Below are positions 15,001 to 21,000 of a stretch of DNA of 64,000 bases, piece after piece. The stretch is taken from assembly GCF_963506605.1 (NCBI RefSeq), contig NC_083288.1:37758001-37822000 (forward strand), written 5' to 3'. Made by a program: the position numbers. Numbering within the stretch: position 1 is the stretch's first letter; every line of letters starts with the position of its first letter. The stretch is from Zootoca vivipara (Eukaryota).

Positions 15001-18000
15001 GAGAAGCTGGGGGCTGCAAATGAAAGAGGGGAATGGGGGGGGATCCCGTGGCTGAGCATCGATTGTTTGCAGGCAGTTGCATTATTTGCAGCCGCTTCCT
15101 TGGCAAAAGCGTTTGTTAAGCATATGTTAGCAGCGACGCCCAAATTCAGCATAAATTGCAACTCGGGTCCTGCTTTAGGCTTGCATCTGGTTGACCGCTG
15201 TGAGAGCAGAGGTGGTAGGGTAACTTAAGTTTTGCTCAGGAGTAGGCCTGTTGAAATGAACGGGCCCTAGCTTCGTCATGCCCATTAATTTCACTGGGTC
15301 TGCCTTGAGTAAAACTTACACGACAGATCCACACCATACGTTTAAAGCATGCGGCATCTCCAAAGGACCCCGGGAATTGTAGTTTTTACCCTTGCAAATC
15401 TGCAGTTCACAGCACCCTTAGCAAAGCATAACTCTGGGGATTCTTAGGGGTGGGAGCCATGAGCTGTAAACGAGTGTTGCATGTGTTTTACATGCACTGT
15501 ATGGCGTGTGTATAGGACGAATACCTAGACTAGATGGGCCATTGGCCTGGTCTGTCGTGATCCTACTGCCAGTACATTTCACTGCGTCACCCTGAGTCCT
15601 TTTTGTTGTTACCACCCTTCATCTGAGGATCACAGGGCGGTATGGTCTAATATGGGACAGGGATGTGGGAAAACACATATCCACACTATATATCAGGATT
15701 GGGGAACCTGTGGCTCTCCAGATATTGCACTCCAGTTCCCTTCAGCCTACAGCCAGTGTGATCAATGGCCAGAGATTATGGTTACAATTCAGCAACCTCT
15801 GGAGGTTCCCCATTCTTGCTATACATAATTTTATAAACTGCTATCAAAGCTCTCTAAACTCTTTGGCTATGGCTTCCTCATTCCATTGCCATTCCGGAGA
15901 GGAGCTTTGCTATGTATTCCTAGTTTTTTGGAGGTTGTTTATAATATTTTCTGTTACTCTAGTTTACCCCACTGTTACAGAACTGCCTGCCCTTTGTTTG
16001 ATGCTTTTAATATCTAAAAATAAGAAACTGGCCAGGAAGTCATGCCTTTCAAAATCCCGTTTTTTACCGCTGCTGGAGGGAAATGGTAGCAAAATGGGAT
16101 TGATTAAAAACTATGTTGGAATGGAAAACTCATGCAATTTCCTTGTAGGAGATTCTTTGAGCAGATGCTGCTAAGAACCCACAGCGAGCCTTCAGCATCA
16201 TGTGCAGGTGACGGTCCATTTGTGTGTGGGGAGGGGGGAGAGAGATCCTATGTACTTTTGAGCATAATTTCAGGCACCCCTGAAGGTACAAAAACATTGT
16301 GCGTGGGTTTAGGGAAAGCAGTACACCCAAGGTGAATACTGTTCCTCTGAATGTGTATCTGAGCCTTTTTAGCATTATGAAATATGGTTACTCACGCTGA
16401 TCCTGAGAGATAATATTGAGTGGAAATGTCTGTATGTTGTTTGTGTGTGTGTGTGTATTGCAATTGCCTCTTGCATCTTTTCTCCTCCCCAGCTTTTGTC
16501 TGCTCAAGCAAGCCCTGCCCGCTCCCTTTGCCATGAAGAAAACCCTACGCAAAAACCAAGGCGAGCGTTACCGCCTGAAATTCCGGCGCCTGCGCCGTGC
16601 GGCCAAACTGCTGGTTTACGAGAACGCAGCTCTGTGCGACGAGATTGCCAGGCTCGAGGCAAAATACCTGCGTGTCCGTGAAGAGCGCCGGTTCCTGCTC
16701 GCTCGCCTACTGCAAGCGCAAGCCCTGGCGGAAGACGAGCCTCCTTTGCCGGCCACCGCTTCAGCTTCACAGCCCTCGCCGGATGAGCCGGCTGCCCGCA
16801 AGCCCCGCCGAGAACGCAAAGGCAAAGAGAATGGCCGGGCCTCCAAGCGCAGGGTGGCCCCCGAGCTTGGTGTCCGCCGGCTGGTTCCGCCACTTCCCTT
16901 GGATCCTTCCGGCCGGCCGGTTTTACCCATTGCGTTGGGTCCGCTGACTGTCTACAGCTTGGGGGAAATTGTTTCCGACCGCCCAGGCTTCCACACGGAG
17001 ACGGCCATCTATCCCGTCGGCTACTGCAGCACCAGGATCTTCGCCAGCACCCGCAGACCAGTCCACCGCTGCCTCTACACCTGCCAGATCAAGGACGGTG
17101 GCGGCGGGCCACACTTTGAGATTGCCCCCGAGGACGAGCCGGGCTGCGTGGTCGCTGGCTCCACTCCCGACGCCTGCCACGCCCAGCTTCTCGAGGCTGT
17201 GGGAGCAGCGCAACTCGAGCCGGCAGGGGCCGAGTTCTTTGGCCTCTCCCACCCGGCCATTCAGCACCTCATCCAGAGCTGCCCAGGAGCTCGCAAGTGC
17301 AGCGGGTACCGCTGGCTGCGCTTTGAGGTGTGCCGCCAAGCGGATGGCCCCCCTCCTGAGGGGTTGCCCTTGGGAAACCCTGGGACTGACTATGAGGCTT
17401 TCCAAAGCCAAGGCCTGGCGGGACCTGTGGGCCTGGACTTCCCCACCGCCACCCCTTCCCCACCGAGCGGCAATGGATATGCAGAACTTTTTCTGCCCTG
17501 TGGTCCCTCAGGAGGCTCCCCCATCCCCCAAAGCCCAGAGAGTGACACGGACTGAATTGGGCCAGAAGCCACAGGCCAGAGCCGTCCATTATTGCACCCG
17601 AGTTTTCTAGTAGCTGCAACTGCGTAGATGTCATAAACTGCTAGTTCTATACAAAGGGTCTGCTTTGAAACTGGTGTTGTCTCTCTTATTCTTCATGGGC
17701 ATCAGTTTGCATGGAGACACCCTAACAGGGGTAGCCAGTGTGGTGCCCTGCAGATGCAGTTGGACTACAGCTCCCATCAGCCAGAGCTAGTATGGCCAAT
17801 GATCAGGGATGATGGGAATTGCAGTCTTAACAGCACCCGGAGGGTGCTGTGTTGGCTATTTCTCCCCTGGAGTAGCCATGTATTTACATTCTCACACACT
17901 ATTGAAACAAGTACTTCAAATGATTGCTTGTCAATTTTCTTCTTTCGGTGTTTCTACTTTAATGAAAATCACTCTCACTAATGGTTGGGGGTTTCTCTGG

Positions 18001-21000
18001 GTTGAGCCAGAGCAGAATTAGGGCAATATTGGCTGAATCATGTGGGCACACTTAACTCTCCACAAAGAGACATTTGCATCGGAGGACTCATCAGTGAAAC
18101 CTGTTTGTAATAAAGCTTTTGAAAATTTTCCTCTGCCTGCAGGAATCTTTGAGATCAGGTATGTGAGAACACAGTTCCATTAAAGGATTCTCTCTTGTGG
18201 ACTTCTCGGTCTCCACAATCTCCCAGGTTTTGGCATAGCTGCCAAGTTTTCCCTTTTCTCACGAGGAAGCCTATTCAGCATAAGGGAAAATCCCTTTAAA
18301 AAAGGGATAACTTGGCAGCTATGGGTTTTGGTCAGCTTTTGGTAATAGTTGGGAGGCCTGGATTTTTTCAGGGTAGGAAGCAGTGGGTAGTCTCTTAATG
18401 GTACATAAAGGTAAAGGGACCCCTGACCATTAGGTCCAGTCGTGACCGACTCTGGGGTTGTGCGCTCATCTCGCATTATTGGCCGAGGGAGCCGGCGTAT
18501 AGCTTCCAGGTCATGTGGCCAGCATGACAAAGCCGCTTCTGGCAAACCAGAGCAGCACATGGAAACGCTGTTTACCTTCCCGCTGTAGCGGTTCCTATTT
18601 ATCTACTTGCATTTTGACGTGCTTTCAAACTGCTAGGTTGGCAGGAGCTGGGACCAAGCAACGGGAGCTCACCCCGTCACAGGGATTCGAACCGCCGACC
18701 TTCTGATCAGCAAGCCCTAGGCTCAGTGGTTTAACCACAGCGCCACCTGGGTCCCTTAATGGTACATACTATATAACAAAAACCAGTTTCAGACTAAAAT
18801 GGCGGATACAGCTTCTGCCAAAAAAAAACCCACTGCCATCCTGAACCAGAGCACATTGATGCAGAAATATGTTCCCACTCTTTGTAGTAAGTTATTCTTT
18901 GTAGTTTTGCAGGTGTACTGGGAATTCTGTAGATTCTTCACAAAATGACAGTGTATAGCATAGAGCTATCGTGTAAAAGCCACAGTACATAAACATGCAG
19001 AGACTGAAAGGACAGGTACTTGGAAAGAGACGAAGGAGTTAATTTTCACATAGTGAGGCGCTGGTAGACGTCCAGTGAATTCCACACTCTCACATACACC
19101 CAATGCAGGCACAGGGAGATGCTTAAAATGCAGGTATCCACCTGTTAATATCACACATTCGTATGCACAGCCACCAAACAAATACCAAAATGGCAGCAGC
19201 CTCATGTGCAGAGAGTAACCCACACCTGCTCTCACATGCAGCTACAAAGGCAGGTAGGTGTTCAATTTACATACATCAACAAGGGAACACTCGGCATTCA
19301 TACACAAATAGTTTTGAAGACACATGTACTAGCTGCCAACATACTCCCAAACACTCGCTCTCTAGCATGAAGGAAGTGTAGAGAGAGTGCATTCAGGCAC
19401 AAGGCAGAAGTTTCCCTTGGCTAGCTCTCAACTCTTATGGGGATCCCTCCTCTGGACACATAATGAGAAAACAAGCTTGACCCAGTATTTGTGGGAGCCT
19501 CCATTGGTGGGGTAATGGCCAATCCTCTTACTCATTTCCTGTCAAAACTCCTTAGTCCCACTTCTACTCTATGCAACAGAACCAGAAGGCTACAGCAAAC
19601 ACAAAACTTTAATTAGCTTTCTCCAAACGGCAGGCAACACTTGGGATAAAGACATGAACCGTGGCTTGTTGAACACACCATTTTCTGCCTCTTTACAACA
19701 AATGTCTTCCAAGGCAAAATACATGTGAGCTTTCAGGCTGCTTCCACCACACTTAAAAACATGACACCTGCTTTCAGCCTCGTTCTGCTTTGCAGCCTTC
19801 CTCTCTTACAAAATGGACAATGTTATCAAAGGTTTTTGCCCTTGCAGGGCTATTGAGCAACCACACACCTCCAAACAATGCCTGAGAAAACAAAAGTCCC
19901 ATTTGGGCATTGAGTCAAGTGAGGGGTAGTGAGGCATCCAGTAACTATGCCAGGCATCCCTAAACTGCAGCCCTCCAGATTTTTGGCCTACAACTCCCAT
20001 GATCCCTAGCTAACAGGACCAGTGGTCAGGGATGATGGGAATTGTAGTCCAAAACATCTGGAGGGCAGAAGTTTGGGGATGCCTGAACTATGCCATTGCT
20101 GGCTCATGAATAACCTCAATTCATTGGCCTTTCCTGGGTCATCCATAAGACTAAAAGTCCATGGACCTTGCTTCAGTCCTGGAACTCCAGAGAACGTTGC
20201 GGCTTCAAGAAGGAGGCCTTTGTAGTGAACACTCCTTGGATTTTTCCAGCAGAAGAAGTGTGCAAAGCAGGGCCAAAATCCAACCTTGCCAGAGTGCTCA
20301 CTTGACATCCACAGCTGCTCGAGGGCCCATTAGATTTGCTCACAGTGTGGGCCTGCCTTCAGGCAAGGTACCATTAACTACGAGAGAAAAGTCCAGCAGG
20401 GGAGACGAGTGGAAGCCTCCGCAGCACAGTAACCCTCATTCCTGGCTGCCACCCTTAACAGCTCAGAAAAAGCACCTCAGATTTGACCTTGCAGCAAAGT
20501 TTCTGACATGGTGCACATCACGCCACAGCTTATAACAGTCTTCTGCCGCTCCCACTGACGCCGAGAGAGGTTCTCCAGGGAGGCTCACCAATCTATGCAA
20601 TATTGTCGTACACGCGGACGACATCCAGGTTGTTCCGCAGAGCCTCCAGCAGCTGCAACGCCTGACCCATCTGCTCGTCCGATAACTGGGCGCTGAAGGT
20701 CGGGATGAACTCAAAGCCGGCAGAGACAGTACAGAGGCCCAGCGAGTTGAGCTTTTCACGGACCTGGTGCAATGTTGGCACAGCGCAAACGAACTGGGCA
20801 GAAGGGAGCAAAAGAAGAAAGGCATTCAGCCACAAACGCTTTGCAGACTTGAACACGGTAGTGCAGCTGCATCAGAAACCTGCCTCTCACCTTCAGAAGC
20901 ATCTTCTCGTTCTCATCCTCCTCCTCTTGGACGTCTTCCGCTCCAGCCTCAATAGCCAGCTCTAGGGCCTGGTCCAAGGTGACGGTGCTGCCGGACCGGT

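What the first reader, a model, noticed from the sequence alone, without database searches (positions are those of the whole stretch)
16493..18114. Intronless, intact TBRG1 at a non-syntenic site: probable functional retrogene with an acquired 5'UTR intron
Seen: the whole 340-aa TBRG1-like CDS lies in one uninterrupted GC-rich exon, preceded by a strong splice acceptor 40 nt before the ATG and followed by AATAAA. It has a shortened linker and a divergent C-terminus. Established: human TBRG1 is multi-exon and lies on 11q24, not beside CORO1A/BOLA2. Inference: a retroposed copy recruited a promoter from the neighbouring GC-rich region (13-15 kb), and it may have replaced the parental gene (orphan retrogene).
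Basis: partly seen in the sequence, partly recalled or inferred. Interest (0 to 1): 0.68.

Follow-up and report, generated by a model that had tools for sequence, protein, structure and literature searches.

The report
Single-exon lizard TBRG1, probable ancient retrogene
This lizard's only TBRG1 gene has its whole coding sequence in one exon at a place unlike the mammalian or fish locus, so it is most likely an old reverse-transcribed copy that replaced the original gene: a known kind of event, not yet described for this gene.

Summary
Window 16533..17555 (+) is an unbroken 340-codon ORF encoding a complete TBRG1/NIAM protein. A Y15-CAG acceptor ends 40 nt before the ATG, and AATAAA lies at 18109..18114.

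The gene is functional, not a pseudogene. The same ~340-aa protein is annotated in 34 named squamate species from geckos to snakes, at 80-97% identity.

Six exon junctions inferred for outgroup TBRG1 genes are all continuous here. One of them is shared by sharks and mammals.

The neighbours are C2H2-ZNF, TACO1, SCAN-ZNF, SLX1, BOLA2 and coronin. They are not the PANX3/SIAE/SPA17 block of mammals or the MMP neighbour of teleosts. No second TBRG1 of any squamate appeared in two protein searches.

Podarcis gene models place alternative non-coding first exons at about 12.54-12.60 kb and 14.80-15.00 kb, both joining at 16493.

Best reading: an ancient orphan retrogene with acquired 5' exons (confidence 0.6). 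No poly(A) relic or target-site duplication survives. In-situ intron loss is not excluded.

The event is at least as old as the squamate ancestor and may be older. Turtle and crocodilian isoforms vary only upstream of the same start codon, and no bird TBRG1 was found. No vertebrate genome could be searched here.

The parts
12201..13600 (.). CpG island (G+C 0.55-0.68, CpG o/e 0.61-0.78) holding the candidate first exon 1a. Possible promoter, perhaps shared head-to-head with the ZNF gene on the minus strand.
   Evidence: 400-nt windows. The promoter role is inferred.
12539..12598 (+). Candidate alternative non-coding first exon 1a. A GAG|gtctcc donor lies at about 12598|12599. The 5' end is unknown.
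   Evidence: tblastn of the N-terminal extension of the Podarcis lilfordi model P0122 (residues 1-21, 81% identity). Donor read by eye. No RNA evidence.
14804..14999 (+). Candidate alternative non-coding first exon 1b. It contains a (CAG)n run and ends at a GGG|gtgaga donor at about 14999|15000. The 5' end is unknown.
   Evidence: tblastn of the P. muralis model P0132 residues 1-57 to 14804..14967 (E 8e-10; 3e-18 over residues 1-63). Donor read by eye.
16476..16492 (+). Polypyrimidine tract plus CAG splice acceptor of the main exon.
   Evidence: The two Podarcis models, which have different upstream exons, share sequence only from about here onwards.
16493..16532 (+). 5'UTR part of the main exon (40 nt).
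16533..17555 (+). Complete TBRG1 CDS, 340 codons plus TGA, with no intron.
16569..16709 (+). INO80E-like N-terminal coiled coil (residues 13-59).
   Evidence: PF24237, 35.1 bits against a cut-off of 27.8.
16923..17327 (+). FYRN (residues 131-189) plus FYRC (192-265) domain.
17556..18114 (+). 3'UTR up to and including the AATAAA at 18109-18114.
   Evidence: Cleavage site not determined.
17745..17844 (.). Interspersed repeat inserted in the 3'UTR. Ten other copies lie in the window at 72-84% identity.

Best explanation
The locus is the lizard's single, functional TBRG1 (NIAM) gene.

Shown:
- The whole 340-aa protein is encoded by one exon.
- That exon carries a splice acceptor 40 nt upstream of the ATG.
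- The same protein is kept in all major squamate lineages.
- At least six exon junctions of outgroup TBRG1 genes are absent here.
- The neighbouring genes differ from those of mammals and teleosts.

Inferred:
- A spliced TBRG1 mRNA was reverse-transcribed and inserted into a gene-dense, ZNF-rich block beside TACO1, SLX1, BOLA2 and CORO1A.
- The copy gained expression by splicing from new upstream non-coding exons. One of these sits in a CpG island about 4 kb upstream.
- It evolved fast for a time. The linker was shortened, the tail was rewritten and lysine was replaced by arginine.
- The intron-containing parent was then lost, leaving an orphan retrogene that now carries the ancestral function: a nuclear FYR-domain and coiled-coil protein of the ARF-MDM2-p53 and chromatin pathways in mammals.
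- The event happened no later than the last common ancestor of squamates.
For: 1. The ORF is intact and carries all three family domains.

2. Conservation. The protein has exactly 340 aa in 14 of the 18 squamate rows tabulated (337-341 in all 18) and is 80-97% identical to the window protein. Thirty-four named squamate species fall in 7 clusters (at most 15 members are listed per cluster).

3. Lost introns, in window coordinates:
- J1, 16619|16620. Mouse exon 1 encodes 48 residues (PMC4231569 passages). Chinchilla X4 differs from X5 by an 18-aa insert here. In 3 of 3 shark species compared, one isoform resumes exactly at ENAA.
- J2 (16835|16836) and J3 (16967|16968). Marmota flaviventris X8 skips an exon between them.
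- J4, 17303|17304. The Chinchilla X2 fusion diverges here.
- J5, 17429|17430. Alternative 3' ends begin here in Marmota, Vicugna and Erinaceus.
- J6, about residue 226. Hypomesus X2 and X3 differ by one residue here.

4. Locus. The window neighbours were identified. Human PANX3 lies between the OR8 cluster and TBRG1 at 11q24.2 (PMC4896268 passage). A cattle chr29 block lists PANX3, SIAE, SPA17 and TBRG1 (PMC12789686 passage). In 13 of 38 'longer' hits, teleost TBRG1 is fused in the model to a matrixin/hemopexin (MMP) gene (Pfam of one of them).

5. Sole copy. The only squamate hits among the best 120 of 449 are the 340-aa type. No squamate protein is among the best 120 of 463 hits to the crocodile protein, where a parental-type copy would be expected to score like mammals. 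tblastn of turtle TBRG1 finds only this one locus in the window.

6. Upstream exons come from the Podarcis models, and one lies in a CpG island.

7. Burst then stasis. The squamate stem is 0.73 substitutions per site, against crown tips of 0.012-0.091. At 170 consensus columns there are 20 squamate-only changes against 4 turtle+crocodilian-only changes.

8. The pattern fits known orphan retrogenes: CpG-island promoters in 9 of 10 families and frequent exon gain (PMC4772013 passages).
Against: - No A-rich tract follows the AATAAA, and no convincing target-site duplication flanks the unit. The best flanking direct repeat is 12 nt at 92% identity. Both would be expected to have decayed, so the classical hallmarks are simply unavailable.
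- The ancestral locus (the PANX3-SIAE interval) in a squamate genome could not be inspected, so loss of a parent is inferred only from protein databases.
- Five of the six junctions rest on isoform comparison, not on gene structures. Four of the six are known only from mammals.
- The region is a mosaic in any case. TACO1 lies elsewhere in human (recalled), so ordinary rearrangement could have moved the gene.
- The long reptile stem (0.40) and the composition shift shared with turtles and crocodilians show that part of the divergence is not tied to a squamate-specific event.
- Squamates evolve faster than turtles and crocodilians in general (recalled). No control gene was analysed.
Confidence: 0.6

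Rival explanations
1. In-situ intron loss. The ancestral TBRG1 gene recombined with its own cDNA (reverse-transcriptase-mediated intron loss). This removed all coding introns but left a 5' intron. The different neighbourhood results from ordinary chromosomal rearrangement in reptiles.
For: The gene keeps an intron just upstream of the start. In lungfish and sharks the exon carrying the homologous KK..KK start region also begins at an acceptor some 27-50 codons upstream, so the reptile acceptor could be ancestral. cDNA-mediated loss is classically 3'-biased (recalled). The block is a mosaic of human 16p11.2-type genes and TACO1, which shows rearrangement.
Against: In mouse the homologous region lies in exon 1 with the ATG. 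The reptile upstream exons would therefore be new under this model too. Loss of six or more introns at once at the original locus is much rarer in vertebrates than retrogene replacement (recalled). None of the mammalian neighbours and no MMP gene were recognised in the 64-kb window (ORFs read by eye; Pfam).
Confidence: 0.2
2. The same retro-replacement, but older. It happened in the common ancestor of living reptiles, so turtles and crocodilians carry the same single-exon gene, and birds hide or lost it.
For: - In the 19 turtle and crocodilian sequences read, every isoform difference lies upstream of the MKK/MTK start. The exceptions are two read-through fusions that diverge 12-13 codons before the stop, and one 244-aa fragment.
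- One-residue differences typical of tandem acceptors lie 13-14 codons before the ATG in Caretta and Dermochelys, 9-10 in Carettochelys and about 31 in alligator. The lizard acceptor lies 40 nt before the ATG.
- Turtle TBRG1 is flanked by C2H2-ZNF genes on both sides (P0181 and P0190).
- GARP content is 0.36-0.44 with 11-15 lysines in all reptiles, against 0.25-0.33 with 24-38 lysines elsewhere. Eleven derived substitutions are shared by reptiles, five of them K to R.
- The linker is already shortened in turtles and crocodilians.
- The reptile stem is 0.40.
- No bird appears among the best 120 of 463 hits to the crocodile protein. CORO1A, MAPK3 and TBX6 were long reported missing in birds (PMC11835228 section 50 passage).
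Against: Proteins cannot show introns, and turtle and crocodilian gene structures were not seen. ZNF similarity between the turtle flanks and the window ZNFs is only 37-54%, which is background level. The turtle and crocodilian 5' extensions give no significant match in the window. The largest burst is on the squamate stem. The composition shift could reflect a shared GC-rich microchromosome without any move. A goose de novo transcriptome names a TBRG1 transcript (PMC6562822 passages).
Confidence: 0.3
3. A processed pseudogene, or a cDNA or assembly artefact, without function.
For: It is intronless and no expression data were available here.
Against: The ORF length is kept in all 18 squamate rows tabulated (337-341 aa, 14 of them exactly 340), at 80-97% identity, across lineages that split about 200 My ago (date recalled). 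All three domains are intact. The locus is embedded in genomic sequence with a repeat in its 3'UTR. The identical protein is in NCBI records.
Confidence: 0.01

Closest known systems
Orphan retrogenes of mammals (Ciomborowska et al. 2013, PMC3548309, listing and start of abstract seen; Carelli et al. 2016, PMC4772013, passages seen)
   Same: The coding sequence is intronless against intron-bearing outgroup orthologues. No parental copy exists in the lineage. The protein is conserved. A CpG island is associated with an upstream exon. 5' exons were gained.
   Different: This case is in squamates (perhaps all reptiles) and concerns TBRG1, which I found in no retrogene paper: TBRG1+retrogene gave 1 irrelevant paper, TBRG1+intronless gave 0 and TBRG1+lizard gave 1 irrelevant paper. 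Supplements could not be read. Retroposition hallmarks and parental relics were not seen here.
Mammalian TBRG1 / NIAM
   Same: The domain order is the same: INO80E-like coiled coil, linker, FYRN-FYRC, tail. The FYR domain is 64-68% identical, and PDB 2wzo matches at E 7e-61.
   Different: Mammalian TBRG1 has a multi-exon CDS and lies at 11q24.2 beside PANX3. Its length is 411 aa against 340. The lizard lacks the 21-residue N-terminal extension, about 30 linker residues and most lysines, with 12 K against 32-38 K.
Turtle and crocodilian TBRG1
   Same: The start codon context is the same. An acceptor lies shortly upstream of the ATG. The composition is GC-shifted and the linker shortened. The neighbourhood is rich in ZNF genes.
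   Different: Identity is only 61-62% overall and 28-31% in the tail. The exon structure is unknown to me.

Membership tests
TBRG1 / NIAM protein family | Contiguous FYRN and FYRC domains | tested here: met
   Pfam FYRN 89.6 bits and FYRC 64.5 bits, both above their cut-offs. PDB 2wzo matches at E 7e-61 over residues 127-266.
TBRG1 / NIAM protein family | N-terminal INO80E-like coiled coil | tested here: met
   PF24237, 35.1 bits against a cut-off of 27.8, residues 13-59.
TBRG1 / NIAM protein family | Groups with named TBRG1 orthologues in species-tree order | tested here: met
   All named best hits are TBRG1. In the 39-row tree, squamates (100/100) are sister to turtles plus crocodilians (100/99).
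Retrogene (retroposed functional gene copy) | Lacks the introns of the parental or outgroup coding sequence | tested here: met
   Six inferred outgroup junctions are all continuous in the window ORF. The outgroup junctions are inferred from isoforms plus one paper, not from gene structures.
Retrogene (retroposed functional gene copy) | Lies at a locus other than the parental one | tested here: inconclusive
   The neighbours differ from those of mammals and from the teleost MMP neighbour. The ancestral tetrapod locus and the same genome's PANX3-SIAE interval could not be examined.
Retrogene (retroposed functional gene copy) | Poly(A) tract remnant at the 3' end | tested here: not met
   No A-rich tract follows 18114. 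It is expected to have decayed at this age, and the 3'UTR has since taken up a repeat.
Retrogene (retroposed functional gene copy) | Flanking target-site duplication | tested here: not met
   The best flanking direct repeat is 12 nt at 92% identity, 16272 against 18415, which is chance level.
Orphan retrogene | No intact parental gene in the same lineage | tested here: inconclusive
   No second squamate TBRG1 protein appears in the best 120 of 449, the best 120 of 463 or the 38 longer hits. A genome-level search was not possible.
Orphan retrogene | Purifying selection and expression | tested here: inconclusive
   Protein conservation is strong. dN/dS could not be computed because no other squamate DNA was at hand. 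Expression is supported only indirectly, by annotated multi-transcript models.
Processed pseudogene | Disabling mutations and neutral decay | tested here: not met
   The ORF is intact and its length and sequence are conserved across squamates.

The most novel reading that the evidence does not exclude
TBRG1 was replaced by a retrocopy in the stem reptile, not in squamates. The copy landed in the GC-rich, ZNF-rich microchromosomal block that also carries CORO1A, BOLA2 and SLX1. This drove the shared lysine-to-arginine and GARP shift and the shortened linker. It would also explain why no bird genome annotation contains TBRG1: the gene sits in the 'hidden' part of bird genomes, or was lost with it. 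The second, larger burst on the squamate stem would then be a separate remodelling of the tail and linker.
Probability: 0.3. Interest if true: 0.5.

Novelty: new member of a known kind. Interest (0 to 1): 0.38.

Why it matters
TBRG1/NIAM is a little-studied regulator in the ARF-MDM2-p53 and chromatin pathways. A lineage in which the whole gene was swapped for a promoter-less copy is a natural experiment. That copy rebuilt its regulation from new 5' exons and a CpG island, and it rewrote its linker and tail while keeping the FYR domain and coiled coil. The case shows which parts of the protein and of its regulation are indispensable. It would also add a deep, reptile-side case to the short list of orphan retrogenes, which has so far been drawn mainly from mammals. 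If the older dating is right, it gives a concrete reason for one more gene 'missing' in birds. It is not a new kind of biology.

Tried and rejected
- Target-site duplications and a poly(A) relic around 16200-18450: only chance-level repeats, and no A tract.
- Orthology of the ZNF genes flanking turtle TBRG1, or fused to Chinchilla TBRG1, with the window's ZNFs: all pairs were 37-54% identical, which is background for C2H2 arrays, so there is no synteny signal.
- tblastn of the N-terminal extensions of 6 turtle and crocodilian models and 6 non-lacertid squamate models against 10001-16532: nothing significant. Only the 2 Podarcis models of the 14 queries matched.
- Pfam on the SLX1 exon ORF and the first BOLA2 exon ORF gave no family. 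SLX1 was then found by a PDB search and BolA in the second exon.
- Literature: TBRG1+retrogene gave 1 irrelevant paper. TBRG1+intronless gave 0. TBRG1+lizard gave 1 irrelevant paper. TBRG1+NIAM+exons gave 2 papers, which were not opened. TBRG1+chicken gave 7, none describing a chicken gene. Of those 7, the quail paper lists TBRG1 only as a network molecule, and the goose paper names a de novo transcript.
- I considered that the Crocodylus 244-aa Ensembl fragment starting MFLKSF|GRPVFP marks an intron. I rejected this because the break does not coincide with any inferred junction and may be a truncated model.
- I considered homology between the lizard 5'UTR read in frame and the mammalian N-terminal extension (the L-x-S-S..L-P motif). 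It is too short to test, so I gave it no weight.
Upstream exons were located one by one.
- Structure prediction, complex prediction, the representative-protein search and the Atlas were not used, because the family is clear from sequence.

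
Full report
**What is there**

Window 16533..17555 (+) is an uninterrupted ORF of 340 codons ending in TGA.
- It encodes an INO80E-like coiled coil (residues 13-59), FYRN (131-189) and FYRC (192-265). All three are above the Pfam cut-offs.
- It matches the solved FYR domain of TBRG1 (PDB 2wzo) at E 7e-61.
- The CDS has 64.5% G+C and GC3 of 70%. It stands out from flanks of 0.40-0.48.
- Fifteen consecutive pyrimidines followed by CAG end at 16492, 40 nt before the ATG. 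The motif Y14CAG occurs 4 times in the window against 0.68 expected.
- The only + strand AATAAA between 11116 and 21865 is at 18109-18114.
- The window has no N.

**Whose gene it is**

The exact protein is in NCBI records. The nearest proteins are TBRG1 of Podarcis raffonei and Lacerta agilis at 97% identity, so the window is from a lacertid lizard.

The same protein is annotated in 34 named squamate species in 7 clusters. These cover geckos, skinks, a cordylid, lacertids, an amphisbaenian, anguimorphs, iguanians and many snakes (at most 15 members are listed per cluster, so this is a lower bound).

All 18 squamate rows tabulated have 337-341 residues, 14 of them exactly 340, and are 80-97% identical to the window protein. 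This rules out a pseudogene.

**Loss of introns**

No vertebrate genome collection was available, so outgroup exon junctions were taken from one paper and from isoform pairs.

| Junction | Window position | Evidence |
|---|---|---|
| J1 | 16619\|16620 | Mouse exon 1 holds the ATG and 48 residues, and exon 2 is floxed (PMC4231569, passages). Chinchilla X4 and X5 differ by an 18-aa insert. In 3 of 3 shark species compared, one isoform skips everything up to "..IF\|ENAA". |
| J2, J3 | 16835\|16836 and 16967\|16968 | Exon skip in Marmota flaviventris X8. |
| J4 | 17303\|17304 | Chinchilla X2 read-through into a KRAB-ZNF. |
| J5 | 17429\|17430 | Alternative 3' ends in Marmota, Vicugna and Erinaceus. 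|
| J6 | near residue 226 | One-residue difference between two Hypomesus isoforms. |

J1 is shared by sharks and mammals, so it dates to the jawed-vertebrate ancestor. All six positions are continuous in the lizard ORF. These junctions are inferences from proteins, not read from gene structures.

**Locus**

The gene order in the window is:
- C2H2-ZNF (-) at 7435-9966
- TBRG1 (+)
- TACO1/YebC (-), with three separate exon matches between 20.7 and 24.9 kb
- SCAN plus ZNF (+) at 29.2-32.5 kb
- SLX1 (-) at about 39.1-39.5 kb
- BOLA2 (+) at 41.5-42.5 kb
- a coronin-1 gene (-) at 46.1-60.2 kb

The first coronin exon scores almost equally against coronin 1A and 1B, so calling it CORO1A rests on its neighbours.

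In human, PANX3 lies between the OR8 cluster and TBRG1 at 11q24.2 (PMC4896268, passage). A cattle chr29 block lists PANX3, SIAE, SPA17, TBRG1 and others (PMC12789686, passage).

In 13 of 38 longer hits, teleost TBRG1 is fused in gene models to a matrixin/hemopexin (MMP) gene (Pfam of one such model). In human the MMP cluster is also on 11q (recalled).

Linkage to 11q-type genes therefore looks ancestral, and the lizard position looks derived.

**Only copy**

- The squamate hits among the best 120 of 449 are all the 340-aa type.
- With a crocodile query, no squamate protein is among the best 120 of 463, where a parental-type copy should score like mammals.
- Turtle TBRG1 finds one locus only in the window.

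All three searches scored only the 8000 candidates sharing most words, within set length ranges. They cannot see unannotated DNA.

**Five-prime exons**

Two Podarcis models carry different N-terminal extensions that share sequence only from about 18 codons before the MKK start.
- The P. muralis extension maps to 14804-14967 (E 8e-10; 3e-18). A GGG|gtgaga donor lies at about 15000.
- The P. lilfordi extension maps to 12539-12601. A GAG|gtctcc donor lies at about 12599, inside a CpG island at 12.2-13.6 kb.

Two alternative non-coding first exons splicing to 16493 are thus supported by homology to annotation, not by RNA that I could see. I built and searched no joined model.

**Mechanism**

Three findings fit retroposition followed by loss of the parent, that is, an orphan retrogene:
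- every coding intron is lost at once;
- the gene sits in a new neighbourhood;
- upstream exons were gained.

In mammals, 9 of 10 orphan retrogene families use CpG-island promoters, and exon gain is frequent (PMC4772013, passages).

The classical hallmarks are absent. There is no A tract after the signal, and the best flanking repeat is 12 nt at 92% identity. That is expected at this age. The 3'UTR has also since taken up a repeat at 17745-17844.

In-situ cDNA-mediated intron loss plus rearrangement remains possible. I put retroposition at 0.6 and in-situ loss at 0.2.

**Timing**

The event predates the squamate ancestor. Several findings suggest it may be older.
- In the 19 turtle and crocodilian sequences read, all isoform variation lies upstream of the same start. 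The exceptions are two read-through fusions and one fragment.
- One-residue tandem-acceptor differences lie 9-14 codons before the ATG in three turtles and about 31 codons before it in alligator.
- Turtle TBRG1 sits between ZNF genes.
- All reptiles share a GARP and K-to-R shift: GARP 0.36-0.44 against 0.25-0.33, and 11-15 lysines against 24-38. They also share a shortened linker: 66, 73 and 86 residues in lizard, turtles and crocodilians, against 91-101 elsewhere.
- The reptile stem is 0.40 substitutions per site.
- No bird TBRG1 appeared.
- Genes of this block (CORO1A, MAPK3, TBX6) were long reported missing in birds (PMC11835228, section 50 passage).

Against an older date:
- The largest burst is on the squamate stem: 0.73, with 20 squamate-only changes against 4 turtle+crocodilian-only changes at 170 consensus columns.
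- ZNF similarities are at background level.
- A goose de novo transcriptome names a TBRG1 transcript (PMC6562822, passages).

Lists of genes missing in birds, and of retrogenes, sit largely in supplements that I could not open.

**Verdict**

This is a real, functional, single-exon TBRG1. It is a probable ancient orphan retrogene, a new member of a known kind, and of moderate interest. I found it in no paper under TBRG1+retrogene, TBRG1+intronless or TBRG1+lizard.

Noticed in passing
window 20700-24950 (-): A multi-exon TACO1/YebC-family gene lies tail-to-tail with TBRG1. Pfam matches fall in three separate ORFs. In human, TACO1 is on another chromosome from CORO1A, BOLA2 and SLX1 (recalled), so this block is a mosaic relative to human.
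   Followed up: partly
window 7435-9966 (-): An 844-aa open frame holds about 20 C2H2 zinc fingers in one exon. Its 5' exons, and perhaps its promoter, may lie in the same CpG island (12.2-13.6 kb) as the candidate TBRG1 first exon. That would make a head-to-head pair.
   Followed up: no
window 29196-32458 (+): A SCAN-domain exon (131 bits) is followed about 1.5 kb later by an exon with four C2H2 fingers. This is a SCAN-ZNF gene between TACO1 and SLX1.
   Followed up: partly
window 39057-42481: SLX1 (-) and BOLA2 (+) lie head-to-head about 2 kb apart, next to the coronin gene (-) at 46.1-60.2 kb. This is the same trio as at human 16p11.2 (human order recalled).
   Followed up: partly
window 14963-14990 and 16443-16457: A (CAG)n run lies inside the candidate first exon 1b and is read as poly-Q in the Podarcis muralis Ensembl model. 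A (TG)n run lies just upstream of the polypyrimidine tract of the acceptor.
   Followed up: no
window 16434-17555 (+): An in-frame ATG at 16434 gives a 373-aa ORF that reads through the acceptor. Some longer database models (381 aa in Phrynocephalus, 379 aa in an unnamed record) may arise from comparable upstream read-through and not from real N-terminal extensions.
   Followed up: partly
window 18406-18700; copies at 3345-3639, 53036-53330, 50555-50746, 63809-63999: A young interspersed element has copies 89-97% identical to one another. One copy lies about 300 nt downstream of the TBRG1 poly(A) signal. LINE reverse-transcriptase fragments recur as well, for example at 610-1272, 13997-14348, 30944-31355 and 62457-63547 (read by eye from the ORFs).
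   Followed up: partly
related proteins P0181 (Malaclemys) and P0190 (Caretta): Turtle gene models fuse TBRG1 to ZNF genes by read-through. They use a donor 12-13 codons before the TBRG1 stop. A Chinchilla model (P0275) fuses TBRG1 to a KRAB-ZNF at a regular exon junction.
   Followed up: partly
related proteins, all reptiles: There is a sharp shift in amino-acid composition. Lysines fall from 24-38 to 11-15 and arginines rise to 27-38 in squamates, turtles and crocodilians alike. This suggests long residence in a GC-biased region.
   Followed up: partly
related proteins of fishes, lungfish, coelacanth and sharks: Non-tetrapod TBRG1 carries an extra N-terminal HARE-HTH domain (PF05066) that all tetrapod proteins seen here lack. 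Three shark species have isoforms that skip the first half of the coiled coil.
   Followed up: no
protein searches: No bird and no tuatara TBRG1 appeared among the best hits, although turtles and crocodilians did.
   Followed up: partly
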